Assembly: GCA_964016885.1 (NCBI GenBank)
Contig: OZ024752.1
Location: 24,490,001 to 24,554,000 of the forward strand
DNA from: Eledone cirrhosa
Taxonomy: Eukaryota
Reading direction: 5' to 3'
Length of the DNA: 64,000 nt
Positions within the stretch are counted from its first letter, which is position 1; every line of letters begins with the position of its first letter. Made by a program: the position numbers and the translations under genes. This document shows positions 1-47,843 of the stretch, piece by piece. The notes below the pieces were generated by a model, which worked only from the letters and a program-made list of their open reading frames with translations, was not told the origin of the DNA and did not search any database.

Positions 1-3000
1 GTGAGAATTTTCAGTGCCTGGAATCCAGTCTCGATAGCTGTTCCTTTTACCGAATTATAATTATATTTATATGAGTCCCCAGTGTCCGCGCATTGCCTGG
101 AGACTTGGCTGAGAATAGATTTCCCTGATGACGCAATGAAATTCTCAACAGTTCATTACGTAACTGTCTTTACCCCATTGCAGAAACTAATTAGTTGGAG
201 TGAAAATTTAAGTAAGTAAGTTAATTCTTTAAAATTTTTTTTTTAATTTTCTTATTTTACGTCTTTTATATTATTGTTCTGCATCCTCCTGCATTGAACC
301 ACCTAGGTACTATGACATAACCTGTGTATTTGCTGGCATTAGCGTACATATGTGCGCTTATGTTAGTAGATATATTAAATTATCTATACTTATCTCCAAA
401 TCACTGATTTGTCGAGCAAACCTGCCAAAACCACTACTAAATTTTTTGGGGGGTGTTAGTAGGCGTCTGTCATATTACCATCCCATTCCTACTGACTAGC
501 CTCAGTGTCACGTGATTGATTCTTTAGAATCGGCCATTTGACTAGTGGCAGTGAGAATTTTCAGTGCCTGGAATCCAGTCCACGATAGCTGTTCCTTTTA
601 CCGAATTATTATTATTTTTATATGAGTCCCCAGTGTCCGCGCATTGCCTGGAGACTTGGCTGAGAATAGACCTCCCTGATGACGCAATGAAATTCTCAAC
701 AGTTCATTACGTAACTGTCTTTATCCCATTGCAGAAACTAATTAGATGGAGTGAAAATTTAAGTAAGTTAATTCTTTAAAATTTTTTTTTTTAATTTTCT
801 TATTTTACGTCTTTTATATTATTGTTCTGCATCCTCCTGCATTGAACCACCTAGGTACTATGACATAACCTGTGTATTTTCTGGCATTAGCGTACATCTG
901 TGCGCTTATGTTAGTAGATATATTAAATTATCTATATTTATTTCCAAATCACTGATTTGTCGAGCAAACCTGCCAAATCCACTACTAAATTTTTGGGGCG
1001 TTGTTAGTAGGCGTCTGTCATCTTACCATCCCATTCCTACTGACTAGCCTCAGTGTCACGTGATTGATTCTTTAGAATCGGCCATTTGACCAGTGGCAGT
1101 GAGAATTTTCAGTGCCTGGAATCCAGTCCACGATAGCTGTTCCTTTTAGCGAATTATTATTATTTTTATATGAGTCCCCAGTGTCCGCGCATTGCCTGGA
1201 GACTTGGCTGAGAATAGACCTCCCTGATGACGCAATGAAATTCTCAACAGTTCATTACGTAACTGTCTTTATCCCATTGCAGAAACTAATTAGTTGGAGT
1301 GAAAATTTAAGTAAGTTAATTCTTTAAAAATTTTTTTTTAAATTTTCTTATTTTACGTCTTTTATATTATTGTTCTGCATCCTCATGCATTGAACCACCT
1401 AGGTACTATGACATAACCTGTGTATTTGCTGGCATTAGCGTACATCTGTGCGCTTATGTTAGTAGATATATTAAATTATCTATATTTATTTCCAAATCAC
1501 TGATTTGTCGAGCAAACCTGCCAAATCCAGTACTAAATTTTTGGGGCGTTGTTAGTAGGCGTCTGTCATCTTACCATCCCATTCCTACTGACTAGCCTCA
1601 GTGTCACGTGATTGATTCTTTAGAATCGGCCATTTGACCAGTGGCAGTGAGAATTTTCAGTGCCTGGAATCCAGTCTCGATAGCTGTTCCTTTTACCGAA
1701 TTATAATTATATTTATATGAGTCCCCAGTGTCCGCGCATTGCCTGGAGACTTGGCTGAGAATAGATTTCCCTGATGACGCAATGAAATTCTCAACAGTTC
1801 ATTACGTAACTGTCTTTACCCCATTGCAGAAACTAATTAGTTGGAGTGAAAATTTAAGTAAGTAAGTTAATTCTTTAAAATTTTTTTTTTAATTTTCTTA
1901 TTTTACGTCTTTTATATTATTGTTCTGCATCCTCCTGCATTGAACCACCTAGGTACTATGACATAACCTGTGTATTTGCTGGCATTAGCGTACATATGTG
2001 CGCTTATGTTAGTAGATATATTAAATTATCTATATTTATCTCCAAATCACTGATTTGTCGAGCAAACCTGCTAAAACCACTACAAAATTTTTTGGGGGGT
2101 GTTAGTAGGCGTCTGTCATCTTACCATCCCATTCCTACTGACTAGCCTCAGTGTCACGTGATTGATTCTTTAGAATCGGCCATTTGACCAGTGGCAGTGA
2201 GAATTTTCAGTGCCTGGAATCCAGTCCACGATAGCTGTTCCTTTTAGCGAATTATTATTATTTTTATATGAGTCCCCAGTGTCCGCGCATTGCCTGGAGA
2301 CTTGGCTGAGAATAGACCTCCCTGATGACGCAATGAAATTCTCAACAGTTCATTACGTAACTGTCTTTATCCCATTGCAGAAACTAATTAGTTGGAGTGA
2401 AAATTTAAGTAAGTTAATTCTTAAAAAATTTTTTTTTAAATTTTCTTATTTTACGTCTTTTATATTATTGTTCTGCATCCTCATGCATTGAACCACCTAG
2501 GTACTATGACATAACCTGTGTATTTGCTGGCATTAGCGTACATCTGTGCGCTTATGTTAGTAGATATATTAAATTATCTATATTTATCTCCAAATCACTG
2601 ATTTGTCGAGCAAACCTGCCAAAACCACTACTAAATTTTTTTGGGGGTGTTAGTAGGCGTCTGTCATCTTACCATCCCATTCCTACTGACTAGCCTCAGT
2701 GTCACGTGATTGATTCTTTAGAATCGGCCAATTGACCAGTGGCCGTGAGAATTTTCAGTGCCTGGAATTCAGTCCTCGATAGCTGTTCCATTTACCGAAT
2801 TATTATTATTTTTATATGAGTCCCCAGTGTCCGCGAATTGCCTGGAGAATTGGCTGAGAATAAACCTCCCTGATGACGCAATGAAATTCTCAACAGTTCA
2901 TTACATAACTGTCTTTATCCCATTGCAGAAACTAATTAGTTGGAGTGAAAATTTAAGTAAGTTAATTCTTTAAAACTTTTAAAAAATTTTTTTTTATTTT

Positions 3001-6000
3001 ACGTCTTTTATATTATTGTTCTGCATCCTCCTGCATTGAACCACCTAGGTACTATGACATAACCTGTGTATTTTCTGGCATTAGCGTACATCTGTGCGCT
3101 TATGTTAGTAGATATATTAAATTATCTATATTTATCTCCAAATCACTGATTTGTCGAGCAAACCTGACAAAACCACTAATAAATTTTTTTTGGGGGGGGT
3201 GTTTGTAGGCGTCTGTCATCTTACCATCCCATTCCTACTGACTAGCCTCAGTGTCACGTGATTGATTCTTTAGAATTGGCCATTTGACCAGTGGCAGTGA
3301 GAATTTTCAGTGCCTGGAATACGTTCCTCGATAGCTGTTCCTTTTACCGAATTATTATTATTTTTATATGATTCCCCAGTGTCCGCGCATTGCCTGGAGA
3401 CTTGGCTGAGAATAGACCTCCCTGATGACGCAATGAAATTCTCAACAGTTCATTACGTAACTGTCTTTATCCTATTGCAGAAACTAATTAGTTGGAGTGA
3501 AAATCTAAGTAAGTTAATTATTTAAAATTTTTTTTTATTAATTTTCTTATTTTACGTCTTTTATATTATTGTTCTTCATCCTCCTGCATTGAACCACCTA
3601 GGTACTATGAGATAACCTGTGTATTTGCTGGCATTAGCGTACATCTGTGCGCTTATGTTAGTAGATATATTAAATTATCTATACTTATCTCCAAATCACT
3701 GATTTGTCGAGCAAACCTGCCAAAACCACTACTAAATTTTTTGGGGGGTGTTAGTAGGCGTCTGTCATATTACCATCCCATTCCTACTGACTAGCCTCAG
3801 TGTCACGTGATTGATTCTTTAGAATCGGCCATTTGACTAGTGGCAGTGAGAATTTTCAGTGCCTGGAATCCAGTCCACGATAGCTGTTCCTTTTACCGAA
3901 TTATTATTATTTTTATATGAGTCCCCAGTGTCCGCGCATTGCCTGGAGACTTGGCTGAGAATAGACCTCCCTGATGACGCAATGAAATTCTCAACAGTTC
4001 ATTACGTAACTGTCTTTATCCCATTGCAGAAACTAATTAGATGGAGTGAAAATTTAAGTAAGTTAATTCTTAAAAATTTTTTTTTTTAATTTTCTTATTT
4101 TACGTCTTTTATATTATTGTTCTGCATCCTCCTGCATTGAACCACCTAGGTACTATGACATAACCTGTGTATTTTCTGGCATTAGCGTACATCTGTGCGC
4201 TTATGTTAGTAGATATATTAAATTATCTATATTTATTTCCAAATCACTGATTTGTCGAGCAAACCTGCCAAATCCACTACTAAATTTTTGGGGCGTTGTT
4301 AGTAGGCGTCTGTCATCTTACCATCCCATTCCTACTGACTAGCCTCAGTGTCACGTGATTGATTCTTTAGAATCGGCCATTTGACCAGTGGCTGTGAGAA
4401 TTTTCAGTGCCTGGAATCCAGTCTCGATAGCTGTTCCTTTTACCGAATTATAATTATATTTATATGAGTCCCCAGTGTCCGCGCATTGCCTGGAGACTTG
4501 GCTGAGAATAGATTTCCCTGATGACGCAATGAAATTCTCAACAGTTCATTACGTAACTGTCTTTACCCCATTGCAGAAACTAATTAGTTGGAGTGAAAAT
4601 TTAAGTAAGTAAGTTAATTCTTTAAAATTTTTTTTTTAATTTTCTTATTTTACGTCTTTTATATTATTGTTCTGCATCCTCCTGCATTGAACCACCTAGG
4701 TACTATGACATAACCTGTGTATTTGCTGGCATTAGCGTACATATGTGCGCTTATGTTAGTAGATATATTAAATTATCTATATTTATCTCCAAATCACTGA
4801 TTTGTCGAGCAAACCTGCTAAAACCACTACAAAATTTTTTGGGGGGTGTTAGTAGGCGTCTGTCATCTTACCATCCCATTCCTACTGACTAGCCTCAGTG
4901 TCACGTGATTTATTCTTTAGAATCGGCCATTTGACTAGTGGCAGTGAGAATTTTCAGTGCCTGGAATCCAGTCCACGATAGCTGTTCCTTTTACCGAATT
5001 ATTATTATTTTTATATGAGTCCCCAGTGTCCGCGCATTGCCTGGAGACTTGGCTGAGAATAGACCTCCCTGATGACGCAATGAAATTCTCAACAGTTCAT
5101 TACGTAACTGTCTTTATCCCATTGCAGAAACTAATTAGATGGAGTGAAAATTTAAGTAAGTTAATTCTTTAAAATTTTTTTTTTTAATTTTCTTATATTA
5201 CGTCTTTTATATTATTGTTCTGCATCCTCCTGCATTGTACCACCTAGGTACTATGACATAACCTATGTATTTTCTGGCATTAGCGTACATCTGTGCCCTT
5301 ATGTTAGTAAAATATATTAAATTATCTATATTTATCTCCAAATCACTGATTTGTCGAGCAAACCTGCCAAAACCACAACAAAATGTTTTTGGGGGTGTTA
5401 AAAGGCGTCTGTCATCTTACCATCCCATTCCTACTGACTAGCCTCAGTGTCACGTGATTGATTCTTTAGAATCGGCCATTTGACCAGTGGCAGTGAGAAT
5501 TTTCAGTGCCTGGAATCCAGTCAACGATAGCTGTTCCTTTTAGCGAATTATTATTATTTTTATATGAGTCCCCAGTGTCCGCGCATTGCCTGGAGACTTG
5601 GCTGAGAATAGACCTCCCTGATGACGCAATGAAATTCTCAACAGTTCATTACGTAACTGTCTTTATCCCATTGCAGAAACTAATTAGTTGGAGTGAAAAT
5701 TTAAGTAAGTTAATTCTTTAAAAAATTTTTTTTAAATTTTCTTATTTTACGTCTTTTATATTATTGTTCTGCATCCTCATGCATTGAACCACCTAGGTAC
5801 TATGACATAACCTGTGTATTTTCTGGCATTAGCGTACATCTGTGCGCTTATGTTAGTAGATATATTAAATTATCTATATTTATCTCCAAATCACTGATTT
5901 GTCGAGCAAACCTGCCAAAACCACTACTAAATTTTTTTTGGGGGGGTGTTTGTAGGCGTCTGTCATCTTACCATCCCATTCCTACTGACTAGCCTCAGTG

Positions 6001-9000
6001 TCACGTGATTGATTCTTTAGAATTGGCCATTTGACCAGTGGCAGTGAGAATTTTCAGTGCCTGGAATACGTTCCTCGATAGCTGTTCCTTTTACCGAATT
6101 ATTATTATTTTTATATGATTCCCCAGTGTCCGCGCATTGCCTGGAGACTTGGCTGAGAATAGACCTCCCTGATGACCCAATGAAATTCTCAACAGTTCAT
6201 TACGTAACTGTCTTTATCCCATTGCAGAAACTAATTAGTTGGAGTGAAAATTTAAGTAAGTTAATTCTTTAAAATTTTTTTTAAAAATGTTCTTATTTTA
6301 CGTCTTTTATATTATTGTTCTGCATCCTCCTGCATTGAACCACCTAGGTACTATGACATAACCTGTGTATTTGCTGGCATTAGCGTACATCTGTGCGCTT
6401 ATGTTAGCAGATATATTAAATTATCTATATTTATCTCCAAATCACTGATTTGTCGAGCAAACCTGCCAAAACCACTACTAAATTTTTTGGGGGGTGTTAG
6501 TAGGCGTCTGTCATCTTACCATCCCATTCCTACTGACTAGCCTCAGTGTCACGTGATTGATTCTTTAGAATCGGCTATTTGACCAGTGGCCGTGAGAATT
6601 TTCAGTGCCTGGAATCCAGTCCTCGATAGCTGTTCCATTTACCGAATTATTATTATTTTTATATGAGTCCCCAGTGTCCGCGCATTGCCTGGAGACTTGG
6701 CTGAGAATAGACCTCCCTGATGACGCAATGAAATTCTCAACAGTTCATTACGTAACTGTCTTTATCCTATTGCAGAAACTAATTAGTTGGAGTGAAAATC
6801 TAAGTAAGTTAATTATTTAAAATTTTTTTTTATTAATTTTCTTATTTTACGTCTTTTATATTATTGTTCTTCATCCTCCTGCATTGAACCACCTAGGTAC
6901 TATGAGATAACCTGTGTATTTGCTGGCATTAGCGTACATCTGTGCGCTTATGTTAGTAGATATATTAAATTATCTATACTTATCTCCAAATCACTGATTT
7001 GTCGAGCAAACCTGCCAAAACCACTACTAAATTTTTTGGGGGGTGTTAGTAGGCGTCTGTCATATTACCATCCCATTCCTACTGACTAGCCTCAGTGTCA
7101 CGTGATTGATTCTTTAGAATCGGCCATTTGACTAGTGGCAGTGAGAATTTTCAGTGCCTGGAATCCAGTCCACGATAGCTGTTCCTTTTACCGAATTATT
7201 ATTATTTTTATATGAGTCCCCAGTGTCCGCGCATTGCCTGGAGACTTGGCTGAGAATAGACCTCCCTGATGACGCAATGAAATTCTCAACAGTTCATTAC
7301 GTAACTGTCTTTATCCCATTGCAGAAACTAATTAGATGGAGTGAAAATTTAAGTAAGTTAATTCTTAAAAATTTTTTTTTTTAATTTTCTTATTTTACGT
7401 CTTTTATATTATTGTTCTGCATCCTCCTGCATTGAACCACCTAGGTACTATGACATAACCTGTGTATTTTCTGGCATTAGCGTACATCTGTGCGCTTATG
7501 TTAGTAGATATATTAAATTATCTATATTTATTTCCAAATCACTGATTTGTCGAGCAAACCTGCCAAATCCACTACTAAATTTTTGGGGCGTTGTTAGTAG
7601 GCGTCTGTCATCTTACCATCCCATTCCTACTGACTAGCCTCAGTGTCACGTGATTGATTCTTTAGAATCGGCCATTTGACCAGTGGCAGTGAGAATTTTC
7701 AGTGCCTGGAATCCAGTCTCGATAGCTGTTCCTTTTACCGAATTATAATTATATTTATATGAGTCCCCAGTGTCCGCGCATTGCCTGGAGACTTGGCTGA
7801 GAATAGATTTCCCTGATGACGCAATGAAATTCTCAACAGTTCATTACGTAACTGTCTTTACCCCATTGCAGAAACTAATTAGTTGGAGTGAAAATTTAAG
7901 TAAGTAAGTTAATTCTTTAAAATTTTTTTTTTAATTTTCTTGTTTTACGTCTTTTATATTATTGTTCTGCATCCTCCTGCATTGAACCACCTAGGTACTA
8001 TGACATAACCTGTGTATTTGCTGGCATTAGCGTACATATGTGCGCTTATGTTAGTAGATATATTAAATTATCTATATTTATCTCCAAATCACTGATTTGT
8101 CGAGCAAACCTGCTAAAACCACAACAAAATGTTTTTGGGGGTGTTAAAAGGCGTCTGTCATCTTACCATCCCATTCCTACTGACTAGCCTCAGTGTCACG
8201 TGATTGATTCTTTAGAATCGGCCATTTGACCAGTGGCAGTGAGAATTTTCAGTGCCTGGAATCCAGTCAACGATAGCTGTTCCTTTTAGCGAATTATTAT
8301 TATTTTTATATGAGTCCCCAGTGTCCGCGCATTGCCTGGAGACTTGGCTGAGAATAGACCTCCCTGATGACGCAATGAAATTCTCAACAGTTCATTACGT
8401 AACTGTCTTTATCCCATTGCAGAAACTAATTAGTTGGAGTGAAAATTTAAGTAAGTTAATTCTTTAAAAAATTTTTTTTAAATTTTCTTATTTTACGTCT
8501 TTTATATTATTGTTCTGCATCCTCATGCATTGAACCACCTAGGTACTATGACATAACCTGTATATTTTCTGGCATTAGCGTACATCTGTGCGCTTATGTT
8601 AGTAGATATATTAAATTATCTATATTTATCTCCAAATCACTGATTTGTCGAGCAAACCTGCCAAAACCACTACTAAATTTTTTTTGGGGGGGTGTTTGTA
8701 GGCGTCTGTCATCTTACCATCCCATTCCTACTGACTAGCCTCAGTGTCACGTGATTGATTCTTTAGAATTGGCCATTTGACCAGTGGCAGTGAGAATTTT
8801 CAGTGCCTGGAATACGTTCCTCGATAGCTGTTCCTTTTACCGAATTATTATTATTTTTATATGATTCCCCAGTGTCCGCGCATTGCCTGGAGACTTGGCT
8901 GAGAATAGACCTCCCTGATGACCCAATGAAATTCTCAACAGTTCATTACGTAACTGTCTTTATCCCATTGCAGAAACTAATTAGTTGGAGTGAAAATTTA

Positions 9001-12000
9001 AGTAAGTTAATTCTTTAAAATTTTTTTTAAAAAAGTTCTTATTTTACGTCTTTTATATTATTGTTCTGCATCCTCCTGCATTGAACCACCTAGGTACTAT
9101 GACATAACCTGTGTATTTGCTGGCATTAGCGTACATCTGTGCGCTTATGTTAGCAGATATATTAAATTATCTATATTTATCTCCAAATCACTGATTTGTC
9201 GAGCAAACCTGCCAAAACCACTACTAAATTTTTTGGGGGGTGTTAGTAGGCGTCTGTCATCTTACCATCCCATTCCTACTGACTAGCCTCAGTGTCACGT
9301 GATTGATTCTTTAGAATCGGCTATTTGACCAGTGGCCGTGAGAATTTTCAGTGCCTGGAATCCAGTCCTCGATAGCTGTTCCATTTACCGAATTATTATT
9401 ATTTTTATATGAGTCCCCAGTGTCCGCGCATTGCCTGGAGACTTGGCTGAGAATAAAGCTCCCTGATGACGCAATGAAATTATCAACAGTTCATTACATA
9501 ACTGTCTTTATCCCATTGCAGAAACTAATTAGATGGAGTGAAAATTTAAGTAAGTTAATTCTTTAAAATTTTTTTTTTAAATTTTCTTATATTACGTCTT
9601 TTATATTATTGTTCTGCATCCTCCTGCATTGTACCACCTAGGTACTATGACATAACCTATGTATTTTCTGGCATTAGCGTACATCTGTGCCCTTATGTTA
9701 GTAAAATATATTAAATTATCTATATTTATCTCCAAATCACTGATTTGTCGAGCAAACCTGCCAAAACCACAACAAAATGTTTTTGGGGGTGTTAAAAGGC
9801 GTCTGTCATCTTACCATCCCATTCCTACTGACTAGCCTCAGTGTCACGTGATTGATTCTTTAGAATCGGCCATTTGACCAGTGGCAGTGAGAATTTTCAG
9901 TGCCTGGAATCCAGTCAACGATAGCTGTTCCTTTTAGCGAATTATTATTATTTTTATATGAGTCCCCAGTGTCCGCGCATTGCCTGGAGACTTGGCTGAG
10001 AATAGACCTCCCTGATGACGCAATGAAATTCTCAACAGTTCATTACGTAACTGTCTTTATCCCATTGCAGAAACTAATTAGTTGGAGTGAAAATTTAAGT
10101 AAGTTAATTCTTTAAAAAATTTTTTTTAAATTTTCTTATTTTACGTCTTTTATATTATTGTTCTGCATCCTCATGCATTGAACCACCTAGGTACTATGAC
10201 ATAACCTGTGTATTTGCTGGCATTAGCGTACATCTGTGCGCTTATGTTAGTAGATATATTAAATTATCTATATTTATCTCCAAATCACTGATTTGTCGAG
10301 CAAACCTGCCAAAACCACTACTAAATTTTTTTGGGGGTGTTAGTAGGCGTCTGTCATCTTACCATCCCATTCCTACTGACTAGCCTCAGTGTCACGTGAT
10401 TGATTCTTTAGAATCGGCTATTTGACCAGTGGCCGTGAGAATTTTCAGTGCCTGGAATTCAGTCCTCGATAGCTGTTCCATTTACCGAATTATTATTATT
10501 TTTATATGAGTCCCCAGTGTCCGCGAATTGCCTGGAGAATTGGCTGAGAATAAACCTCCCTGTTGACGCAATGAAATTCTCAACAGTTCATTACATAACT
10601 GTCTTTATCCCATTGCAGAAACTAATTAGTTGGAGTGAAAATTTAAGTAAGTTAATTCTTTAAAACTTTTTTAAAAAAATTTTTTATTTTACGTCTTTTA
10701 TATTATTGTTCTGCATCCTCCTGCATTGAACCACCTAGGTACTATGACATAACCTGTGTATTTTCTGGCATTAGCGTACATCTGTGCGCTTATGTTAGTA
10801 GATATATTAAATTATCTATATTTATCTCCAAATCACTGATTTGTCGAGCAAACCTGCCAAAACCACTACTAAATTTTTTTTGGGGGGGGGGGTGTTTGTA
10901 GGCGTCTGTCATCTTACCATCCCATTCCTACTGACTAGCCTCAGTGTCACGTGATTGATTCTTTAGAATTGGCCATTTGACCAGTGGCAGTGAGAATTTT
11001 CAGTGCCTGGAATACGTTCCTCGATAGCTGTTCCTTTTACCGAATTATTATTATTTTTATATGATTCCCCAGTGTCCGCGCATTGCCTGGAGACTTGGCT
11101 GAGAATAGACCTCCCTGATGACCCAATGAAATTCTCAACAGTTCATTACGTAACTGTCTTTATCCCATTGCAGAAACTAATTAGTTGGAGTGAAAATTTA
11201 AGTAAGTTAATTCTTTAAAATTTTTTTTAAAAATGTTCTTATTTTACGTCTTTTATATTATTGTTCTGCATCCTCCTGCATTGAACCACCTAGGTACTAT
11301 GACATAACCTGTGTATTTGCTGGCATTAGCGTACATCTGTGCGCTTATGTTAGCAGATATATTAAATTATCTATATTTATCTCCAAATCACTGATTTGTC
11401 GAGCAAACCTGCCAAAACCACTACTAAATTTTTTGGGGGGTGTTAGTAGGCGTCTGTCATCTTACCATCCCATTCCTACTGACTAGCCTCAGTGTCACGT
11501 GATTGATTCTTTAGAATCGGCCATTTGACCAGTGGCAGTGAGAATTTTCAGTGCCTGGAATCCAGTCCTCGATAGCTGTTCCTTTTACCGAATTATAATT
11601 ATTTTTATATGAGTCCCCAGTGTCCGCGCATTGCCTGGAGACTTGGCTGAGAATAGACCTCCCTGATGACGCAATGAAATTCTCAACAGTTCATTACGTA
11701 ACTGTCTTTATCCCATTGCAGAAACTAATTAGTTGGAGTGAAAATCTAAGTAAGTTAATTATTTAAAATTTTTTTTTATTAATTTTCTTATTTTACGTCT
11801 TTTATATTATTGTTCTTCATCCTCCTGCATTGAACCACGTAGGTACTATGACATAACCTGTGTATTTTATGGCATTAGCGTACATCTGTGCGCTTATGTT
11901 AGTAGATATATTAAATTATCTATATTTATCTCCAAATCACTGATTTGTCGAGCAAACCTGCCAAATCCACTACTAAATTTTTTTTTGTGGGGGGGGGTGT

Positions 12001-33000: not shown

Positions 33001-36000
33001 TTGATTCTTTAGAATCGGCCATTTGACCAGTGGCAGTGAGAATTTTCAGTGCCTGGAATCCAGTCCTCGATAGCTGTTCCTTTTACCGAATTATAATTAT
33101 TTTTATATGAGTCCCCAGTGTCCGCGCATTGCCTGGAGACTTGGCTGAGAATAGATTTCCCTGATGACGCAATGAAATTCTCAACAGTTCATTACGTAAC
33201 TGTCTTTACCCCATTGCAGAAACTAATTAGTTGGAGTGAAAATTTAAGTAAGTTAATTCTTTAAAATTTTTTTTTTTAATTTTCTTGTTTTACGTCTTTT
33301 ATATTATTGTTCTGCATCCTCCTGCATTGAACCACCTAGGTACTATGACATAACCTGTGTATTTTCTGGCATTAGCGTACATCTGTTCGCTTATGTTAGT
33401 AGATATATTAAATTATATATATTTATCTCCAAATCACTGATTTGTCGAGCAAACCTGCCAAATCCACTACTAAATTTTTTAGGGGGTGTTAGTAGGCGTC
33501 TGTCATCTTACCATCCCATTCCTACTGACTAACCTCAGTGTCACGTGATTGATTCTTTAGAATTGGCCATTTGACCAGTGGCAGTGAGAATTTTCAGTGC
33601 CTGGAATCCAGTCCTCGATAGCTGTTCCATTTACCGAATTATTATTATTTTTATATGAGTCCCCAGTGTCCGCGCATTTCCTGGAGACTTGGCTGAGAAT
33701 AGACCTCCCTGATGACGCACTGAAATTCTCAACAGTTCATTACGTAACTGTCTTTATCCCATTGCAGAAACTAATTAGATGGAGTGAAAATTTAAGTAAG
33801 TTAATTCTTAAAAAATTTTTTTTTTTAATTTTCTTATATTACGTCTTTTATATTATTGTTCTGCATCCTCCTGCATTGTACCTCCTAGGTACTATGACAT
33901 AACCTATGTATTTTCTGGCATTAGCGTACATCTGTGCCCTTATGTTAGTAAAATATATTAAATTATCTATATTTATCTCCAAATCACTGATTTGTCGAGC
34001 AAACCTGCCAAAACCACAACAAAATGTTTTTGGGGGTGTTAGTAGGCGTCTGTCATCTTACCATCCCATTCCTACTGACTAGCCTCAGTGTCACGTGATT
34101 GATTCTTTAGAATCGGCCATTTGACCAGTGGCAGTGAGAATTTTCAGTGCCTGGAATCCAGTCCACGATAGCTGTTCCTTTTACCGAATTATTATTATTT
34201 TTATATGAGTCCCCAGTGTCCGCGCATTGCCTGGAGACTTGGCTGAGAATAGACCTCCCTGATGACGCACTGAAATTCTCAACAGTTCATTACGTAACTG
34301 TCTTTATCCCATTGCAGAAACTAATTAGTTGGAGTAAAAATTTTAGTAAGTTAATTCTTTAAAATTTTTTTTTTAAATTTTCTTATTTTACGTCTTTTAT
34401 ATTATTGTTCTGCATCCTCATGCATTGAACCACCTAGGTACTATGACATAACCTGTGTATTTGCTGGCATTAGCGTACATCTGTGCGCTTATGTTAGTAG
34501 ATATATTAAATTATCTATATTTATCTCCAAATCACTGATTTGTCGAGCAAACCTGCCAAAACCACTACTAAATTTTTTGGGGGGTGTTAGTAGGCGTCTG
34601 TCATCTTACCATCCCATTCCTACTGACTAGCCTCAGTGTCACGTGATTGATTCTTTAGAATCGGCTATTTGACCAGTGGTCGTGAGAATTTTCAGTGCCT
34701 GGAATTCAGTCCTCGATAGCTGTTCCATTTACCGAATTATTATTATTTTTATATGAGTCCCCAGTGTCCGCACATTGCCTGGAGACTTGGCTGAGAATAA
34801 ACCTCCCTGATGACGCACTGAAATTCTCAACAGTTCATTACGTAACTGTCTTTATCCCATTGCAGAAACTAATTAGTTGGAGTGAAAATTTAAGTAAGTA
34901 AGTTAATTTTTTAAAATTCTTTAAAAAAATTTTCTTATTTTACGTCTTTTATATTATTGTTCTGCATCCTCCTGCATTGAACCACCTAGGTACTATGACA
35001 TAACCTGTGTATTTTCTGGCATTAGCGTACATCTGTGCGCTTATGTTAGTAGATATATTAAATTATCTATATTTATCTCCAAATCACTGATTTGTCGAGC
35101 AAACCTGCCAAATCCACTACTAATTTTTTTTTTTGGGGGGGGGGGTGTTAGTAGGCGTCTGTCATCTTACCATCCCATTCCTACTGACTAGCCTCAGTGT
35201 CACGTGATTGATTCTTTAGAATCGGCCATTTGACCAGTGGCAGTGAGAATTTTCAGTGCCTGGAATCCAGTCCTCGATAGCTGTTCCTTTTACCGAATTA
35301 TTATTATTTTTATATGAGTCCCCAGTGTCCGCGCATTGCCTGGAGACTTGGCTGAGAATAGATTTCCCTGATGACGCAATGAAATTCTCAACAGTTCATT
35401 ACGTAACTGTCTTTACCCCATTGCAGAAACTAATTAGTTGGAGTGAAAATTTAAGTAAGTTAATTCTTTAAAATTTTTTTTTTTAATTTTCTTGTTTTAC
35501 GTCTTTTATATTATTGTTCTGCATCCTCCTGCATTGAACCACCTAGGTACTATGACATAACCTGTGTATTTTCTGGCATTAGCGTACATCTGTTCGCTTA
35601 TGTTAGTAGATATATTAAATTATATATATTTATCTCCAAATCACTGATTTGTCGAGCAAACCTGCCAAATCCACTACTAAATTTTTTAGGGGGTGTTAGT
35701 AGGCGTCTGTCATCTTACCATCCCATTCCTACTGACTAACCTCAGTGTCACGTGATTGATTCTTTAGAATTGGCCATTTGACCAGTGGCAGTGAGAATTT
35801 TCAGTGCCTGGAATCCAGTCCTCGATAGCTGTTCCATTTACCGAATTATTATTATTTTTATATGAGTCCCCAGTGTCCGCGCATTTCCTGGAGACTTGGC
35901 TGAGAATAGACCTCCCTGATGACGCACTGAAATTCTCAACAGTTCATTACGTAACTGTCTTTATCCCATTGCAGAAACTAATTAGATGGAGTGAAAATTT

Positions 36001-39000
36001 AAGTAAGTTAATTCTTAAAAATTTTTTTTTTTTAATTTTCTTATATTACGTCTTTTATATTATTGTTCTGCATCCTCCTGCATTGTACCTCCTAGGTACT
36101 ATGACATAACCTATGTATTTTCTGGCATTAGCGTACATCTGTGCCCTTATGTTAGTAAAATATATTAAATTATCTATATTTATCTCCAAATCACTGATTT
36201 GTCGAGCAAACCTGCCAAAACCACAACAAAATGTTTTTGGGGGTGTTAGTAGGCGTCTGTCATCTTACCATCCCATTCCTACTGACTAGCCTCAGTGTCA
36301 CGTGATTGATTCTTTAGAATCGGCCATTTGACCAGTGGCAGTGAGAATTTTCAGTGCCTGGAATCCAGTCCACGATAGCTGTTCCTTTTACCGAATTATT
36401 ATTATTTTTATATGAGTCCCCAGTGTCCGCGCATTGCCTGGAGACTTGGCTGAGAATAGACCTCCCTGATGACGCACTGAAATTCTCAACAGTTCATTAC
36501 GTAACTGTCTTTATCCCATTGCAGAAACTAATTAGTTGGAGTAAAAATTTTAGTAAGTTAATTCTTTAAAATTTTTTTTTAAATTTTCTTATTTTACGTC
36601 TTTTATATTATTGTTCTGCATCCTCATGCATTGAACCACCTAGGTACTATGACATAACCTGTGTATTTGCTGGCATTAGCGTACATCTGTGCGCTTATGT
36701 TAGTAGATATATTAAATTATCTATATTTATCTCCAAATCACTGATTTGTCGAGCAAACCTGCCAAAACCACTACTAAATTTTTTGGGGGGTGTTAGTAGG
36801 CGTCTGTCATCTTACCATCCCATTCCTACTGACTAGCCTCAGTGTCACGTGATTGATTCTTTAGAATCGGCTATTTGACCAGTGGTCGTGAGAATTTTCA
36901 GTGCCTGGAATTCAGTCCTCGATAGCTGTTCCATTTACCGAATTATTATTATTTTTATATGAGTCCCCAGTGTCCGCACATTGCCTGGAGACTTGGCTGA
37001 GAATAAACCTCCCTGATGACGCACTGAAATTCTCAACAGTTCATTACGTAACTGTCTTTATCCCATTGCAGAAACTAATTAGTTGGAGTGAAAATTTAAG
37101 TAAGTAAGTTAATTTTTTAAAATTCTTTAAAAAAATTTTCTTATTTTACGTCTTTTATATTATTGTTCTGCATCCTCCTGCATTGAACCACCTAGGTACT
37201 ATGACATAACCTGTGTATTTTCTGGCATTAGCGTACATCTGTGCGCTTATGTTAGCAGATATATTAAATTATCTATATTTATCTCCAAATCACTGATTTA
37301 TCGAGCAAACCTGCCAAAACCACTACTAAATTTTTTGGGGGGTGTTAGTAGGCGTCTGTCATCTTACCATCCCATTCCTACTGACTAGCCTCAGTGTCAC
37401 GTGATTGATTCTTTAGAATCGGCCATTTGACCAGTGGCAGTGAGAATTTTCAGTGCCTGGAATCCAGTCCTCGATAGCTGTTCCTTTTACCGAATTATAA
37501 TTATTTTTATATGAGTCCCCAGTGTCCGCGCATTGCCTGGAGACTTGGCTGAGAATAGATTTCCCTGATGACGCAATGAAATTCTCAACAGTTCATTACG
37601 TAACTGTCTTTACCCCATTGCAGAAACTAATTAGTTGGAGTGAAAATTTAAGTAAGTTAATTCTTTAAAATTTTTTTTTTTAATTTTCTTGTTTTACGTC
37701 TTTTATATTATTGTTCTGCATCCTCCTGCATTGAACCACCTAGGTACTATGACATAACCTGTGTATTTTCTGGCATTAGCGTACATCTGTTCGCTTATGT
37801 TAGTAGATATATTAAATTATATATATTTATCTCCAAATCACTGATTTGTCGAGCAAACCTGCCAAATCCACTACTAAATTTTTTAGGGGGTGTTAGTAGG
37901 CGTCTGTCATCTTACCATCCCATTCCTACTGACTAACCTCAGTGTCACGTGATTGATTCTTTAGAATTGGCCATTTGACCAGTGGCAGTGAGAATTTTCA
38001 GTGCCTGGAATCCAGTCCTCGATAGCTGTTCCATTTACCGAATTATTATTATTTTTATATGAGTCCCTAGTGTCCGCGCATTTCCTGGAGACTTGGCTGA
38101 GAATAGACCTCCCTGATGACGCACTGAAATTCTCAACAGTTCATTACGTAACTGTCTTTATCCCATTGCAGAAACTAATTAGATGGAGTGAAAATTTAAG
38201 TAAGTTAATTCTTAAAAATTTTTTTTTTTTAATTTTCTTATATTACGTCTTTTATATTATTGTTCTGCATCCTCCTGCATTGTACCTCCTAGGTACTATG
38301 ACATAACCTATGTATTTTCTGGCATTAGCGTACATCTGTGCCCTTATGTTAGTAAAATATATTAAATTATCTATATTTATCTCCAAATCACTGATTTGTC
38401 GAGCAAACCTGCCAAAACCACAACAAAATGTTTTTGGGGGTGTTAGTAGGCGTCTGTCATCTTACCATCCCATTCCTACTGACTAGCCTCAGTGTCACGT
38501 GATTGATTCTTTAGAATCGGCCATTTGACCAGTGGCAGTGAGAATTTTCAGTGCCTGGAATCCAGTCCACGATAGCTGTTCCTTTTACCGAATTATTATT
38601 ATTTTTATATGAGTCCCCAGTGTCCGCGCATTGCCTGGAGACTTGGCTGAGAATAGACCTCCCTGATGACGCACTGAAATTCTCAACAGTTCATTACGTA
38701 ACTGTCTTTATCCCATTGCAGAAACTAATTAGTTGGAGTAAAAATTTTAGTAAGTTAATTCTTTAAAATTTTTTTTTTAAATTTTCTTATTTTACGTCTT
38801 TTATATTATTGTTCTGCATCCTCATGCATTGAACCACCTAGGTACTATGACATAACCTGTGTATTTGCTGGCATTAGCGTACATCTGTGCGCTTATGTTA
38901 GTAGATATATTAAATTATCTATATTTATCTCCAAATCACTGATTTGTCGAGCAAACCTGCCAAAACCACTACTAAATTTTTTGGGGGGTGTTAGTAGGCG

Positions 39001-42000
39001 TCTGTCATCTTACCATCCCATTCCTACTGACTAGCCTCAGTGTCACGTGATTGATTCTTTAGAATCGGCTATTTGACCAGTGGTCGTGAGAATTTTCAGT
39101 GCCTGGAATTCAGTCCTCGATAGCTGTTCCATTTACCGAATTATTATTATTTTTATATGAGTCCCCAGTGTCCGCACATTGCCTGGAGACTTGGCTGAGA
39201 ATAAACCTCCCTGATGACGCACTGAAATTCTCAACAGTTCATTACGTAACTGTCTTTATCCCATTGCAGAAACTAATTAGTTGGAGTGAAAATTTAAGTA
39301 AGTAAGTTAATTTTTTAAAATTCTTTAAAAAAATTTTCTTATTTTACGTCTTTTATATTATTGTTCTGCATCCTCCTGCATTGAACCACCTAGGTACTAT
39401 GACATAACCTGTGTATTTTCTGGCATTAGCGTACATCTGTGCGCTTATGTTAGTAGATATATTAAATTATCTATATTTATCTCCAAATCACTGATTTGTC
39501 GAGCAAACCTGCCAAATCCACTACTAATTTTTTTTTGGGGGGGGGGGTGTTAGTAGGCGTCTGTCATCTTACCATCCCATTCCTACTGACTAGCCTCAGT
39601 GTCACGTGATTGATTCTTTAGAATCGGCCATTTGACTAGTGGCAGTGAGAATTTTCAGTGTATGGAATCCAGTCCACGATAGCTGTTCCTTTTACCGAAT
39701 TATTATTATTTTTATATGAGTCCCCAGTGTCCGCGCATTGCCTGGAGACTTGGCTGAGAATAGACCTCCCTGATGACGCAATGAAATTCTCAACAGTTCA
39801 TTACGTAACTGTCGTTATCCCATTGCAGAAACTAATTAGATGGAGTGAAAATTTAAGTAAGTTAATTCTTTAAAATTTTTTTTTTTAATTTTCTTATATT
39901 ACGTCTTTTATATTATTGTTCTGCATCCTCCTGCATTGTACCTCCTAGGTACTATGACATAACCTATGTATTTTCTGGCATTAGCGTACATCTGTGCCCT
40001 TATGTTAGTAAAATATATTAAATTATCTATATTTATCTCCAAATCACTGATTTGTCGAGCAAACCTGCCAAAACCACAACAAAATGTTTTTGGGGGTGTT
40101 AGTAGGCGTCTGTCATCTTACCATCCCATTCCTACTGACTAGCCTCAGTGTCACGTGATTGATTCTTTAGAATCGGCCATTTGACCAGTGGCAGTGAGAA
40201 TTTTCAGTGCCTGGAATCCAGTCCACGATAGCTGTTCCTTTTACCGAATTATTATTATTTTTATATGAGTCCCCAGTGTCCGCGCATTGCCTGGAGACTT
40301 GGCTGAGAATAGACCTCCCTGATGACGCACTGAAATTCTCAACAGTTCATTACGTAACTGTCTTTATCCCATTGCAGAAACTAATTAGCTGGAGTAAAAA
40401 TTTAAGTAAGTTAATTCTTTAAAATTTTTTTTTTAAATTTTCTTATTTTACGTCTTTTATATTATTGTTCTGCATCCTCATGCATTGAACCACCTAGGTA
40501 CTATGACATAACCTGTGTATTTGCTGGCATTAGCGTACATCTGTGCGCTTATGTTAGTAGATATATTAAATTATCTATATTTATCTCCAAATCACTGATT
40601 TGTCGAGCAAACCTGCCAAAACCACTACTAAATTTTTTGGGGGGTGTTAGTAGGCGTCTGTCATCTTACCATCCCATTCCTACTGACTAGCCTCAGTGTC
40701 ACGTGATTGATTCTTTAGAATCGGCTCTTTGACCAGTGGTCGTGAGAATTTTCAGTGCCTGGAATTCAGTCCTCGATAGCTGTTCCATTTACCGAATTAT
40801 TATTATTTTTATATGAGTCCCCAGTGTCCGCACATTGCCTGGAGACTTGGCTGAGAATAAACCTCCCTGATGACGCACTGAAATTCTCAACAGTTCATTA
40901 CGTAACTGTCTTTATCCCATTGCAGAAACTAATTAGTTGGAGTGAAAATTTAAGTAAGTAAGTTAATTTTTTAAAATTCTTTAAAAAAATTTTCTTATTT
41001 TACGTCTTTTATATTATTGTTCTGCATCCTCCTGCATTGAACCACCTAGGTACTATGACATAACCTGTGTATTTGCTGGCATTAGCGTACATCTGTGCGC
41101 TTATGTTAGTAGATATATTAAATTATCTATATTTATCTCCAAATCACTGATTTGTCGAGCAAACCTGCCAAAACCACTAATAAATTTTTTGGGGGGTGTT
41201 TGTAGGCGTCTGTCATCTTACCATCCAATTCCTATTGACTAGCCTCAGTGTCACGTGATTGATTCTTTAGAATTGGCCATTTGACCAGTGGCAGTGAGAA
41301 TTTTCAGTGCCTGGAATACATTCCTCGATAGCTGTTCCTTTTACCGAATTATTATTATTTTTATATGATTCCCCAGTGTCCGCGCATTGCCTAGATACTT
41401 GGCTGAGAATAGACCTCCCTGATGACCCAATAAAATTCTCAACAGTTCATTACGTAACTGTCTTTATCCCATTGCAGAAACTAATTAGTTGGAGTGAAAA
41501 TTTAAGTAAGTTAATTCTTTAAAAAATTTTTTAAAAATTTTCTTATTTTACGTCTTTTATATTATTGTTCTGCATCCTCCTGCATTGAACCACCTAGATA
41601 CTATGACATAACCTGTGTATTTGCTGGCATTAGCGTACATCTGTGCGCTTATGTTAGCAGATATATTAAATTATCTATATTTATCTCCAAATCACTGATT
41701 TGTCGAGCAAACCTGCCAAAACCACTACTAAATTTTTTGGGGGGTGTTAGTAGGCGTCTGTCATCTTACCATCCCATTCCTACTGACTAGCCTCAGTGTC
41801 ACGTGATTGATTCTTTAGAATCGGCCATTTGACCAGTGGCAGTGAGAATTTTCAGTGCCTGGAATCCAGTCCTCGATAGCTGTTCCTTTTACCGAATTAT
41901 AATTATTTTTATATGAGTCCCCAGTGTCCGCGCATTGCCTGGAGACTTGGCTGAGAATAGATTTCCCTGATGACGCAATGAAATTCTCAACAGTTCATTA

Positions 42001-43173
42001 CGTAACTGTCTTTACCCCATTGCAGAAACTAATTAGTTGGAGTGAAAATTTAAGTAAGTTAATTCTTTAAAATTTTTTTTTTTAATTTTCTTGTTTTACG
42101 TCTTTTATATTATTGTTCTGCATCCTCCTGCATTGAACCACCTAGGTACTATGACATAACCTGTGTATTTTCTGGCATTAGCGTACATCTGTTCGCTTAT
42201 GTTAGTAGATATATTAAATTATATATATTTATCTCCAAATCACTGATTTGTCGAGCAAACCTGCCAAATCCACTACTAAATTTTTTAGGGGGTGTTAGTA
42301 GGCGTCTGTCATCTTACCATCCCATTCCTACTGACTAACCACAGTGTCACGTGATTGATTCTTTAGAATTGGCCATTTGACCAGTGGCAGTGAGAATTTT
42401 CAGTGCCTGGAATCCAGTCCTCGATAGCTGTTCCATTTACCGAATTATTATTATTTTTATATGAGTCCCCAGTGTCCGCGCATTTCCTGGAGACTTGGCT
42501 GAGAATAGACCTCCCTGATGACGCACTGAAATTCTCAACAGTTCATTACGTAACTGTCTTTATCCCATTGCAGAAACTAATTAGTTGGAGTGAAAATTTA
42601 AGTAAGTAAGTTAATTCTTTAAAATTTTTTTTTTAAATTTTCTTACTTTACGTCTTTTATATTATTGTTCTGCATCCTCCTGCATTGAACCACCTAGGTA
42701 CTATGACATAACCTGTGTATTTTCTGGCATTAGTGTACATCTGTGCGCTTATGTTAGTAGATATATTAAATTATCTATATTTATCTCCAAATCACTGATT
42801 TGTCGAGCAAACCTGCCAAAACCACTACTAAATTTTTTGGGGGTGTTAGTATGCGTCTGTCATCTTACCATCCCATTCCTACATTCCTACTGACTAGCCT
42901 CAGTGTCACGTGATTGATTCTTTAGAATCGGCCATTTGACCAGTGGCAGTGAGAATGTTCAATGCCTGGAATCCAGTCCTCGATAGCTGTTCCATTTACC
43001 GAATTATTATTATTTTTATATGAGTCCCCAGTGTCCGTGCATTGCCTGGAGACTTGGCTGAGAATAGACCTCTGATGACGCAATGAAATTCTCAACAGTT
43101 CATTACGTAACTGTCTTTATCCCATTGCAGAAACTAATTAGTTGGAGTGAAAATTTAAGTAAGTAAGTTAATT

Positions 43174-43178
<5 letters not shown>
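1..43178 (+). repeat. Tandem array of a ~549 bp HHR-containing unit (78 full + 1 partial copy in window; continues left); retrozyme-like satellite
   Basis: Unit start GTGAGAATTTTCAGTG recurs at 1, 551, 1099 ... 42949 with ~547-562 bp spacing (mirrored by the recurring 71-aa ORFs). Copies differ by scattered SNPs and T/G homopolymer length. The last copy stops at ATTCTTTA (43178) and runs into (TA)n. Confidence 0.99.
1220..1299 (+). ncRNA. Type I hammerhead ribozyme, representative intact copy (one motif per satellite unit; first at 121-200, last at ~43069-43147)
   Basis: Stem I CTCC (1220-23)/GGAG (1296-99); core CTGATGA (1224-30); stem II GCAATG (1232-37)/CATTGC (1275-80) enclosing hairpin ACAGTT/AACTGT; GAAA (1282-85); palindromic stem III A-CTAATTAG-T; predicted cleavage after GUU at 1295. 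Weak points: stem I is only 4 bp and positions 10.1/11.1 are a C.A mismatch. Confidence 0.8.
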
Positions 43179-43234
<56 letters not shown>

Positions 43235-43261
43235 TTATATTTTTATATATATATATATATA

Positions 43262-43306
<45 letters not shown>

Positions 43307-43358
43307 TTATATATATATATATATATATATATGGTTTATATATATATGTATATATATG

Positions 43359-43423
<65 letters not shown>

Positions 43424-43484
43424 ATATATATATATATCTGATATATATATATAGCTGATATATATATATATATACATATATATA

Positions 43485-43523
<39 letters not shown>
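43178..43523. repeat. (TA)n microsatellite, interrupted
   Basis: Long TA dinucleotide runs directly after the satellite end. Confidence 0.97.
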
Positions 43524-43524
<1 letters not shown>

Positions 43525-43564
43525 GATATTAAATAAATGTAAACTATATTTATAAAACCATATT

Positions 43565-43630
43565 TATTTCATTATATATATTTCAGGGATATCATATTAA
43601 AAATATTGTATGCCTTCATCAGACAAAATA
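43565..43630 (-). ncRNA. Type I hammerhead ribozyme (PLE pLTR-type, palindromic stem III)
   Basis: Minus strand reads TATTTTGT-CTGATGA-AGG(25 nt)CCT-GAAA-TATATA-TA-ATGAAATA: 8 bp stem I with two G.U pairs, stem II AGG/CCT, self-complementary stem III, AUA cleavage triplet (between 43573 and 43572). Confidence 0.78.
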
Positions 43631-43701
43631 CAATATAAACAGTCTTATAAATATCTATTTATAAGACTGTTTATATTGTATTTTGTCTGATGAAGGCATA
43701 C
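43608..43701. repeat. Perfect inverted repeat, 46 bp arms with 2 nt spacer
   Basis: 43608-43653 is the reverse complement of 43656-43701; the right arm has CTGATGA on + but lacks the GAAA half. Confidence 0.95.
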
Positions 43702-43715
43702 CATATTTGTTTGGG

Positions 43716-44112
43716 AACAGACCTGTAATTTTGAATTGTTGTTATTATCAATAAATATATTTCATTATTTCTGAAGACGGCATATGTATGTGTTGGTATG
43801 TATATTATATTTGATAGTTTGTATAATTTTGTATAATTTTGTACATAGATCTGTTGTATATGCATGCCAATTCTAACACATATATGTCCTAGAAACGATC
43901 GTTAAATAATGAACTTTTTTTGTTTAATATAAGGAACTGTTTCATTGTTTTATTCATTATTTTTTTTATACTTTATCTTGACTCTGTATTCCGTTTATCT
44001 TTCACCGAAAGTGATTTTGAATGCATCTCTTCTTTCCATGATATCCGGATTACATTGAGTTCTTCATACGGATTGGACACTACCGTAAACTCTTGGTAGA
44101 TTTATCTACATA
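43716..44112 (+). repeat. 5' pseudo-LTR (direct repeat copy 1)
   Basis: Matches 48868-49264 at a constant offset of 5152, with about 6 differences counted by eye. Confidence 0.93.
43761..43913 (+). ncRNA. Type I hammerhead ribozyme in 5' pLTR with very long stem II
   Basis: Stem I TTCATTATTT/AAATAATGAA (10 bp perfect); CTGAAGA (43771-77); 114 nt stem II region (TATGTGTTGG pairing with CTAACACATA); GAAA (43892-95); palindromic stem III A-CGATCG-T; GUU cleavage after 43903. Confidence 0.85.
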
Positions 44113-46436: not shown

Positions 46437-47270
46437 TAATATATATTTTAGAAATTAATATATAATTTAATTTAATTAAAATTCTACTACAGATGAGATT
46501 AAAAAATATTGTGTAATCATAAATTGTGAAAAACATTTAAATATTATTAACATAATTAATATATACTTTGTAAATTAATTTATAGATTAATTTTAGTTTA
46601 TTTAACCTTTTATTAAAATTCCTTTACAGATGAAATATAACAAAATATCGTGTAATCAATAACAGAGAAATATTTTTTAAAATTATAAACCTAATTAATG
46701 TACGATTTAGAAATTTATTTATAAATTAATTTTAATTTAGTTAACCTATAATTTTAATTTAATTAGCTTAAAATTAAAATTCTAATACAGATGGATTGCA
46801 GAATATCATGTAATCATAAACTGAGATAAATTTTTAAATATATACCTAATTAATATATTCTTTACAATTAAATATATATATGTATATATATATTAATTTT
46901 AATTTTTGTTAACCTATAATTATATTCTACTATAGATAAAATACAAAATCTGCTTTAATTATTATAAACCTAATTAACATATACTATAGAAATTAATATA
47001 TAATTTTTAATTTAGTTAACCTATAATTTATATTCTACTACCGATGAAATACTTGATTTGGTTTTCCCTATCACTAAATTCATTTCCTAATATTGATACC
47101 ATAATGTTAATATTTTTAATTTAGTTATGCTATAATTAATACTCTACTACTGTTTAACTTCAAAATTCCGCTTCAAATATTATAAACCTAAGTAGTATAC
47201 ACCTTAGAAATCAATATATTAACTATTTTTAATTTAGTTAACCTATAATTAATAGTCTACTTATATTAAA
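46385..47270 (+). repeat. Degenerate ~120-160 bp tandem repeats beginning in the last codons of the PLE ORF
   Basis: ATCGTGTAATCATAAACTGAGA...TTATAAACCTAATTAAT...TTTAATTTAGTTAACCTATAATT...ATTCTACTACAGATGA-like blocks recur at ~46385, 46508, 46647, 46805 and partially at ~46960, 47115, 47180. Confidence 0.8.

Positions 47271-47540: not shown

Positions 47541-47577
<37 letters not shown>

Positions 47578-47754: not shown

Positions 47755-47843
<89 letters not shown>

What the first reader, a model, noticed from the sequence alone, without database searches (positions are those of the whole stretch)
1..43178. A >43 kb satellite in which every ~549 bp unit encodes a hammerhead ribozyme motif (giant retrozyme-like array)
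Seen: each unit has CTCC-CTGATGA-cGCAATG...CATTGCa-GAAA-CTAATTAG-TT-GGAG (e.g. 1220-1299), the complete type I HHR core and three helices in correct order, in 79 copies. Known: HHR-bearing tandem repeats (newt satellite 2, schistosome Sm-alpha, Dolichopoda pDo500, metazoan non-LTR retrozymes) give multimeric transcripts that self-cleave to monomers and, for retrozymes, circular RNAs; most described units are shorter. Inference: read-through transcription here would be cut into ~549 nt monomers or circles. The 51 nt stem II region could hide this motif from standard HHR descriptors, so the family may be undescribed.
Basis: partly seen in the sequence, partly recalled or inferred. Interest (0 to 1): 0.88.

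Follow-up and report, generated by a model that had tools for sequence, protein, structure and literature searches.

The report
Penelope-spread ribozyme repeat, locally amplified
This 72-kb array is a locally multiplied copy of a scattered, protein-free jumping repeat whose units carry a predicted self-cutting RNA; its insertions have the same end pattern as a neighbouring Penelope-type retrotransposon, which likely supplies the copying enzyme.

Summary
The hammerhead is real, but the array is not the main story. The window holds 79 units of about 549 bp; the array continues upstream to 131 units (71.6 kb) between (TA)n tracts. The motif occurs 9,248 times genome-wide (reversed control 0), in subfamilies 70-93% alike, with compensatory changes in helix II. 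Most sampled copies sit in short insertions in (TA)n. In 35 of 35 two-armed insertions with both ends typed, one arm ends 56-77 nt and the other about 160-195 nt past the cleavage site. A Hydra-type Penelope-like element beside the array has the same hammerhead build, target and two ends (+70, +206), so such an enzyme likely copies the repeat. The array is a sink: only 61 of 131 units keep an intact motif and its common variants are almost absent elsewhere. A conserved segment half a unit away is predicted to pair across the cleavage site. Cleavage, transcription and circles are untested. Non-LTR retrozymes of this size and array length are published, and this scan already noted two-armed retrozymes on other DNA, also in this genome.

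The parts
1..43176 (+). Window part of the tandem array: 79 of 131 units; whole array G000:C12:24461532-24533176, 5'-truncated start at unit position 444, single arm, (TA)n on both sides
1220..1299 (+). Type I hammerhead motif of one unit (helix I 1220-1223/1296-1299; core CTGATGA 1224-1230; GAAA 1282-1285; predicted cleavage 1295^1296 after GUU)
1231..1281 (+). 51-nt helix II region: opposed C and A at the base, 6-bp covarying helix (1232-1237/1275-1280), internal loop, covarying distal helix
   Evidence: (z -4.1)
1285..1294 (+). 10-nt palindrome forming helix III; predicted to pair with the same segment of the next unit (double hammerhead). It was part of the search pattern that chose the 36 aligned copies, so its invariance there is by selection
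1362..1367 (+). End A: preferred 3' end of dispersed insertions (+56 to +77 from the cleavage site), inferred reverse-transcription start site
1463..1486 (+). Hairpin TAGAT...ATCTA and end B (+165 to +195 in most copies), second inferred reverse-transcription start site; the same hairpin motif precedes end B of the neighbouring Penelope-like element
1578..1597 (+). Anti-junction segment (unit position about 283-302), predicted to pair with both sides of the cleavage site
1602..1610 (+). TGTCACGTG, a 9-nt invariant run far from the hammerhead in 14 monomers; E-box-like (label recalled), possible internal promoter element
   Evidence: function not tested
43177..43523 (.). (TA)n tract at the right end of the array (insertion target)
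43761..43913 (+). Hammerhead of the neighbouring Penelope-like element's pseudo-LTR (CTGAAGA-C, long helix II, A-GAAA, palindromic helix III, GUU; cleavage 43903^43904); second copy with its core at 48923-49055
44293..46436 (+). Hydra-type Penelope-like RT + GIY-YIG frame (this copy has an N-terminal deletion and a frameshift near the 3' end); candidate source of the enzyme, pseudo-LTR ending at 49261 in (TA)n

Best explanation
The unit is a non-coding, hammerhead-bearing mobile repeat (non-LTR retrozyme type) that is likely copied into (TA)n microsatellites by the RT-endonuclease of a Hydra-type Penelope-like element, and this array is one insertion that was likely multiplied afterwards at the DNA level. 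Shown: the family is dispersed over many contigs, its hammerhead helices covary, its insertions are 5'-truncated, often two arms head to head, joined to (TA)n at two fixed points (A about +70, B about +190), one A and one B per insertion; a neighbouring Hydra-type element shows the same pattern. Inferred steps: (1) + strand multimeric transcripts are cut after GUU by a double hammerhead formed through the helix III palindrome; (2) the 547-549 nt monomer folds so that the anti-junction segment holds its two ends together for a host ligase and then keeps the circle from re-cutting; (3) the Penelope-like enzyme cuts both strands of (TA)n and primes one strand at site A and the other at site B, reading through the cleavage junction for up to about 5 units, which needs a circle or an uncut multimer; (4) at this locus unequal exchange or block duplication expanded one insertion to 131 units, with no sign of selection on the ribozyme.
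For: Dispersal: 1,792 candidate places for the unit; 9,248 motif matches, control 0. Structure: 95.9% of cells paired, 67 cells with changes on both sides against 23 in shuffles, all four Watson-Crick pairs at one helix II position with 0 of 36 broken. Ends: 18 of 18 two-armed insertions among 30 main-subfamily loci are A+B; 17 A+B, 0 A+A, 0 B+B and 2 with one untyped end among 38 loci chosen by motif pattern, mostly other subfamilies. Penelope-like neighbour: ends at +70 and +206/207, second arm of type A in 6 of 6 two-armed loci; RWR, DKT, CxCx5C, CxxC and CxH motifs in an 830-aa frame fit the Hydra description; published Hydra hammerheads have GUU in 10 of 25 families and a mismatch at the base of helix II in 15 of 25, my count on File S2. 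One template per insertion: variant sites shared by copies of one insertion 96 of 523 against 533 of 20,864 between insertions; 35 of 53 arms exceed one unit. Sink: helix-II-breaking variant 28 of 29 genome copies in this array, GAU triplet 20 of 23, against 4,343 GUU copies; nearest unit most often 4 or 7 units away.
Against: No cleavage, transcript or circle was observed. The active folds are not the predicted minimum: double hammerhead -157.5 against -163.5 kcal/mol free, and only 3 kcal/mol better than two monomer folds. GUU is a weaker triplet than GUC (one search says GUC is best) and 8 of 9 Xenopus retrozyme dimers did not cleave in vitro. In a Poseidon element cleavage needed protein and was not required for insertion, so the circle may be dispensable. 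The unit shows no sequence similarity to the neighbouring element's pseudo-LTR (score 68.5, shuffles 63.5 +/- 7, 77 of 300 as high), so the partner family and descent are not established; Hydra membership rests on motifs, Pfam gave no hit and no tree was built. The array's own right end (+33) is neither A nor B. Dispersed main-subfamily loci were the best BLAST hits, which biases them towards young, intact copies. The covariation control does not correct for relatedness.
Confidence: 0.8

Rival explanations
1. Same mobile element and same enzyme, but the template is an uncut linear multimer read from a few source loci; the hammerhead is kept for processing only and no circle is made.
For: Hammerhead mutants of a Poseidon element still insert in vitro and no RNA ends map at its cleavage site. 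Read-through of the junction fits uncut RNA as well as a circle. Predicted active folds lie above the minimum.
Against: Copies within one insertion share private variants seven times more often than copies of different insertions; circular folds are stable (z -1.8 to -6.9, stronger on the + strand in 5 of 5); a conserved segment complementary to both sides of the junction is easiest to explain for a monomer or circle; related retrozymes do form circles.
Confidence: 0.3
2. The array is the master locus: it is transcribed, cut into monomers and seeds the dispersed copies.
For: 26 adjacent pairs of intact units remain, longest intact run 8, so the array could still yield monomers if transcribed.
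Against: Variants carried by 8-44 of 78 array units, most outside the ribozyme, are seen in 0-2 of about 46-90 dispersed segments at 24 of 25 sites; two ribozyme variants are 28 of 29 and 20 of 23 confined to the array.
Confidence: 0.05
3. An ordinary satellite in which a hammerhead-like word pattern arose by chance or is a dead relic of a pseudo-LTR.
For: Within the array ribozyme-breaking changes spread freely (70 of 131 units not intact); Rfam has no match.
Against: Compensatory changes in both parts of helix II and concerted length change of helix I across subfamilies that are only 70-93% alike; thousands of young dispersed insertions with retrotransposition ends.
Confidence: 0.03

Closest known systems
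Metazoan non-LTR retrozymes (Cervera and de la Pena 2020, PMC7229834; Li, Clavereau and Pollet 2026, bioRxiv 10.64898/2026.07.22.740005)
   Same: Non-coding, low-GC tandem units each with a type I hammerhead; weak palindromic helix III as in axolotl; unit length inside the reported 51-972 bp; array length inside the reported maximum of 300 units; co-occurs with Penelope-like elements.
   Different: Helix II region of 51 nt with internal loop instead of a short hairpin; GUU triplet; the circle is predicted to be locked across the cleavage site, whereas PMC7229834 says most metazoan circles (except some mussel ones) are not; (TA)n target and paired A/B ends; no RNA evidence here.
Hydra clade of Penelope-like elements (Craig et al. 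2021, PMC8557442)
   Same: (TA)n insertion, partial tandems with an inverted 5'-truncated arm, an extension at only one end, hammerheads with GUU and an unpaired base of helix II.
   Different: The unit has no ORF; the distance between the two ends is about 120 nt (137 nt in the neighbour) rather than the 30-40 bp tail; helix II is far longer than the 3-10 nt loops listed for Hydra families; the neighbour's unit is 6.66 kb, not under 3 kb.
Poseidon element PAc of Anolis (Frangieh et al. 2024, PMC11167929)
   Same: Two internal reverse-transcription start sites downstream of a hammerhead, AT-rich target cut on both strands, predicted protein dimer.
   Different: There no difference of start site between strands was seen in vitro; here the two arms of an insertion use different sites in 35 of 35 typed cases.

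Membership tests
Type I hammerhead ribozyme | Core CUGANGA ... GAAA ... NUH in order with helices I, II, III | tested here: met
   met in 61 of 131 array units and 63 of 79 motif copies in 30 dispersed loci
Type I hammerhead ribozyme | Covariation of helices across diverged copies | tested here: met
   7 pairs with changes on both sides, 67 cells against 23 in shuffles; helix III invariant (uninformative, part of the search pattern)
Type I hammerhead ribozyme | G10.1-C11.1 pair directly closing helix II | tested here: not met
   C and A face each other first, then G-C; the same C/A arrangement is listed for PLE-X1_cBra and U/U for many Hydra families, and a U/U mismatch in an axolotl motif that cleaves, so this is a known deviation
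Type I hammerhead ribozyme | Self-cleavage after the NUH triplet | not testable with these tools
   needs in vitro transcription
Non-LTR retrozyme | [quoted passage not shown] | tested here: met
   26 adjacent intact pairs in the array; in the array units inside 42000-43176 only 91-92 aa stop-to-stop frames
Non-LTR retrozyme | Dispersed, mobile family with low GC and no LTR/PBS/PPT arrangement | tested here: met
   PBS and PPT judged by eye only
Non-LTR retrozyme | Target-site duplications when present longer than 4 bp | tested here: inconclusive
   flanks are (TA)n, in which a duplication cannot be read
Non-LTR retrozyme | Expressed as linear and circular monomer RNA | not testable with these tools
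   no RNA data set was available for this sequence
Non-autonomous partner of a Penelope-like element | Partial tandem plus inverted 5'-truncated arm, extension at one end only | tested here: met
Non-autonomous partner of a Penelope-like element | Sequence homology to the pseudo-LTR of an autonomous element | tested here: not met
   tested only against the neighbouring family; other families of the genome were not tested
Hydra clade (neighbouring element) | RWK-like, DKT, CxCX5C linker, C-terminal GIY-YIG with CxxC and CxH, (TA)n target | tested here: met
   against the text (RWR for RWK)
Hydra clade (neighbouring element) | Placement in the Hydra clade of an RT tree | not tested
   no tree built; Pfam silent

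The most novel reading that the evidence does not exclude
A self-locking animal RNA circle: a decoy strand half a unit away splints the two cut ends for ligation and then blocks re-cleavage as in viroids, and a Hydra-type Penelope enzyme primes the two strands of a (TA)n break at two different fixed sites of this RNA. That would name the enzyme, target and start sites for an animal retrozyme and give a ready two-component assay.
Probability: 0.35. Interest if true: 0.7.

Novelty: new variant of a known kind. Interest (0 to 1): 0.5.

Why it matters
Which enzyme moves animal retrozymes, and whether it reads a circle, is proposed but not shown in the papers read here. This family offers thousands of young insertions, a candidate Hydra-type enzyme with intact frames in the same genome, and two exact predicted start sites, so the question becomes a defined in vitro test. 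It also shows the step from a dispersed retroelement to a 72-kb satellite in which the ribozyme decays, and a hammerhead form that Rfam models miss.

Tried and rejected
Rfam: no hammerhead match. Expression: no RNA holder listed, and no reads were laid, so expression stays open. Pfam on the Penelope-like frames: nothing at cut-off. Direct descent of the unit from the neighbouring pseudo-LTR: no significant similarity. The idea that the array's 5' end marks a transcription start: rejected, 5' ends of dispersed copies spread evenly along the unit. A first, loose end-typing of diverged subfamilies picked internal AT runs and gave 19 AB, 4 BB, 2 AA; it was replaced by a stricter rule. The 2 'AA' pairs printed for the Penelope-like loci come, in my reading, from a third, separate insertion in L148 and L158; L158 and L159 look like duplicates of one insertion. 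Other large arrays: a 5.5-kb query returned at most about 5 units and not the array itself, so it is uninformative. Relatives elsewhere: none in phages; 3 metagenome pattern hits lack helices and similarity, taken as chance; no look-alike in the scan's index. Lunse et al. on small dimeric hammerheads is not held and could bear on whether this helix II form is described; supplements of the bioRxiv preprint are closed. Literature searches; none returned this family.
Full report
Observation. The window begins inside a tandem array of 79 units, mostly 547-552 bp, 96.6% alike on average with 68 distinct sequences among 78 complete units. Fetching 200 kb upstream showed 52 more units; the array starts at G000:C12:24461532 at unit position 444 and spans 71.6 kb, 131 units, with (TA)n on both sides. 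The genome is a 3.0-Gb assembly in 1,796 contigs; no call named the organism. Earlier AI notes call it octopus-like, unchecked here.

Is the hammerhead real? A pattern of core plus helix III matches 9,248 places, the reversed pattern none. Complete monomers from other loci are 521-571 bp and 70-93% identical to the window unit. On 36 copies chosen one per locus (the window copy and 35 from 38 fetched loci; loci without an intact upstream flank were left out), the hammerhead structure gives 95.9% paired cells and 67 cells changed on both sides against 23 in shuffles; one position of the helix II base shows U-A 15, A-U 13, C-G 4, G-C 4 and no broken pair; all four distal helix II pairs covary. 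Helix I changes length in step on both strands in two subfamilies. These controls ignore relatedness, and core and helix III were fixed by the search pattern, so only helices I and II are informative. Helix III is a 10-nt palindrome (self-duplex -9.0 kcal/mol); in a real two-unit stretch the double hammerhead (-157.5) beats two monomer folds (-154.3) but not the free minimum (-163.5), in which the core pairs with the palindrome. Palindromic, dimer-dependent helix III is the described state of metazoan and Penelope-type hammerheads (PMC4209133, parts 1-2 of 4 read; PMC6765202, passages). The opposed C and A at the base of helix II and the GUU triplet are not new: in File S2 of PMC8557442 I count GUU in 10 of 25 Hydra families and a pyrimidine mismatch at that position in 15 of 25, and C/A in PLE-X1_cBra. 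GUU obeys the NUH rule but GUC is reported as best (PMC2238771, passages). The 51-nt interrupted helix II is longer than in any Hydra row of that table, and Rfam does not detect the motif.

A mobile family. The unit has 1,792 candidate places, 38 scored, on many contigs. In 30 main-subfamily loci (the best BLAST hits, so biased to young copies) insertions are 5'-truncated at scattered points, lie in or beside (TA)n, and mostly consist of two arms head to head; 35 of 53 arms exceed one unit, the longest 5.3. The outer ends do not lie at the cleavage site but at A (+56 to +77) or B (+165 to +195, one at +161 after a deletion). All 18 two-armed insertions with both ends found among these 30 loci are A+B (one has a shortened A end); among 38 loci chosen by pattern, mostly other subfamilies, 17 are A+B, none A+A or B+B, and 2 have one untyped end. 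With independent choice half should be mixed. Copies within one insertion share variants at 96 of 523 variant sites, against 533 of 20,864 between insertions (pairs are not independent), which points to one template per event. Reading through the cleavage junction needs a circle or an uncut multimer (inference).

The likely enzyme. Just right of the array lies a Penelope-like element: RT and GIY-YIG frames at 44293-46436, with 150 scored relatives at 96-100% identity and frames of about 830 aa. An intact copy carries RWR, DKT, CxCx5C, CxxC and CxH, the features given for the (TA)n-targeting Hydra clade (PMC8557442, section 11 and passages); no tree was built and Pfam is silent. Its pseudo-LTR hammerhead folds as a textbook motif at minimum energy and has the same build: extra C, very long helix II, extra A, palindrome, GUU. 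Its insertions end at +70 and +206/207, the second after a TAGAT...ATCTA hairpin as in the repeat, and the second arm is of type A in 6 of 6 two-armed loci among 25 chosen by end B. Two internal start sites, with the stretch between them as the one-sided tail, are shown in vitro for a Poseidon element (PMC11167929, parts 1-2 of 4 read). Against a simple parent-child link: the unit and this pseudo-LTR share no significant sequence, and other Penelope-like families are present, so the partner is 'a Hydra-type element', not necessarily this one.

The array is a sink. Only 61 of 131 units are intact; 24 have GAU or GCU at the triplet, 3 a core change, 42 only a broken helix II pair, 1 a shortened helix I. 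In the 30 dispersed loci 63 of 79 motif copies are intact and none has a changed triplet; several of the rest are truncation junctions. Genome-wide, 28 of 29 copies of one helix II variant and 20 of 23 GAU copies lie in this array, against 4,343 GUU copies. At 24 of 25 sites where 8 or more array units differ, the variant is in 0-2 dispersed segments. Nearest neighbours lie most often 4 or 7 units apart, the mark of block duplication. So the array grew in place and did not seed the sampled copies. It has a single arm, and its right end (+33) is atypical. 26 adjacent intact pairs remain, so it could still yield monomers if transcribed.

A predicted lock. Circular folds are more stable than shuffles (z -1.8 to -6.9, 15 shuffles each) and more so on the + strand in 5 of 5 monomers; consensus folding of 14 monomers shows compensatory changes in several hairpins outside the hammerhead. 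A segment half a unit away (window 1578-1597) is the best complement of the cleavage junction in 17 of 18 monomers, pairs with it in 7 of 10 circular minimum folds, and changes in step with helix I in one subfamily, a single event. It could splint the cut ends for ligation and block re-cutting. PMC7229834 (parts 2-4 of 6 read) says most metazoan retrozyme circles are not blocked, unlike plant retrozymes and viroids. This is prediction only.

Comparison and verdict. Non-LTR retrozymes are known, with units of 51-972 bp, arrays up to 300 units and a proposed Penelope origin; 1 of 9 tested dimers cleaved (bioRxiv 10.64898/2026.07.22.740005, parts 1-3 of 5 read, supplements closed). Seven paper searches did not return this family, strict A+B pairing of ends, or a Hydra-type partner; one relevant paper was not held. 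The scan's own notes already describe two-armed retrozymes with Penelope footprints in this and other genomes; my reading was formed before seeing them. Verdict: a real, apparently undescribed family of a known kind, with variant features; the giant array is a by-product. Interest 0.5.

Noticed in passing
window 43524-43712: Short inverted-repeat piece of a third hammerhead-bearing family (CTGATGA ... GAAA with an AT palindrome as helix III); similar pieces in L006 and L067.
   Followed up: no
window 63078-63692 (-): 3' fragment of a second Hydra-type Penelope-like frame, 49% identical over 112 aa to the first.
   Followed up: partly
G000:C6:49529962-49557338: Five head-to-tail copies of the autonomous Penelope-like element at about 6.65 kb spacing, four with 830-aa frames.
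   Followed up: partly
window 46436-48900: The Penelope-like element has an unusually long 3' region (about 2.4 kb here) with 109- and 139-bp repeats and microsatellites, making the unit more than twice the length given for Hydra elements.
   Followed up: no
window 49262-61404: A 12-kb degenerate (TA)n tract with short inserted fragments, followed by a 200-N gap at 61455-61654.
   Followed up: no
L066-L068: Another repeat family with the same hammerhead build (extra base on each side of a long helix II, CTGCAG palindrome, GUU).
   Followed up: no
repeat unit, about 15 nt after the cleavage site: A 7-nt invariant run that resembles a splice donor (label recalled); Penelope pseudo-LTRs are known to hold introns.
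   Followed up: no
G000 genome-wide: Motif counts are skewed to the + strand (2,478 against 1,865), more than this array explains; other long arrays may exist.
   Followed up: partly
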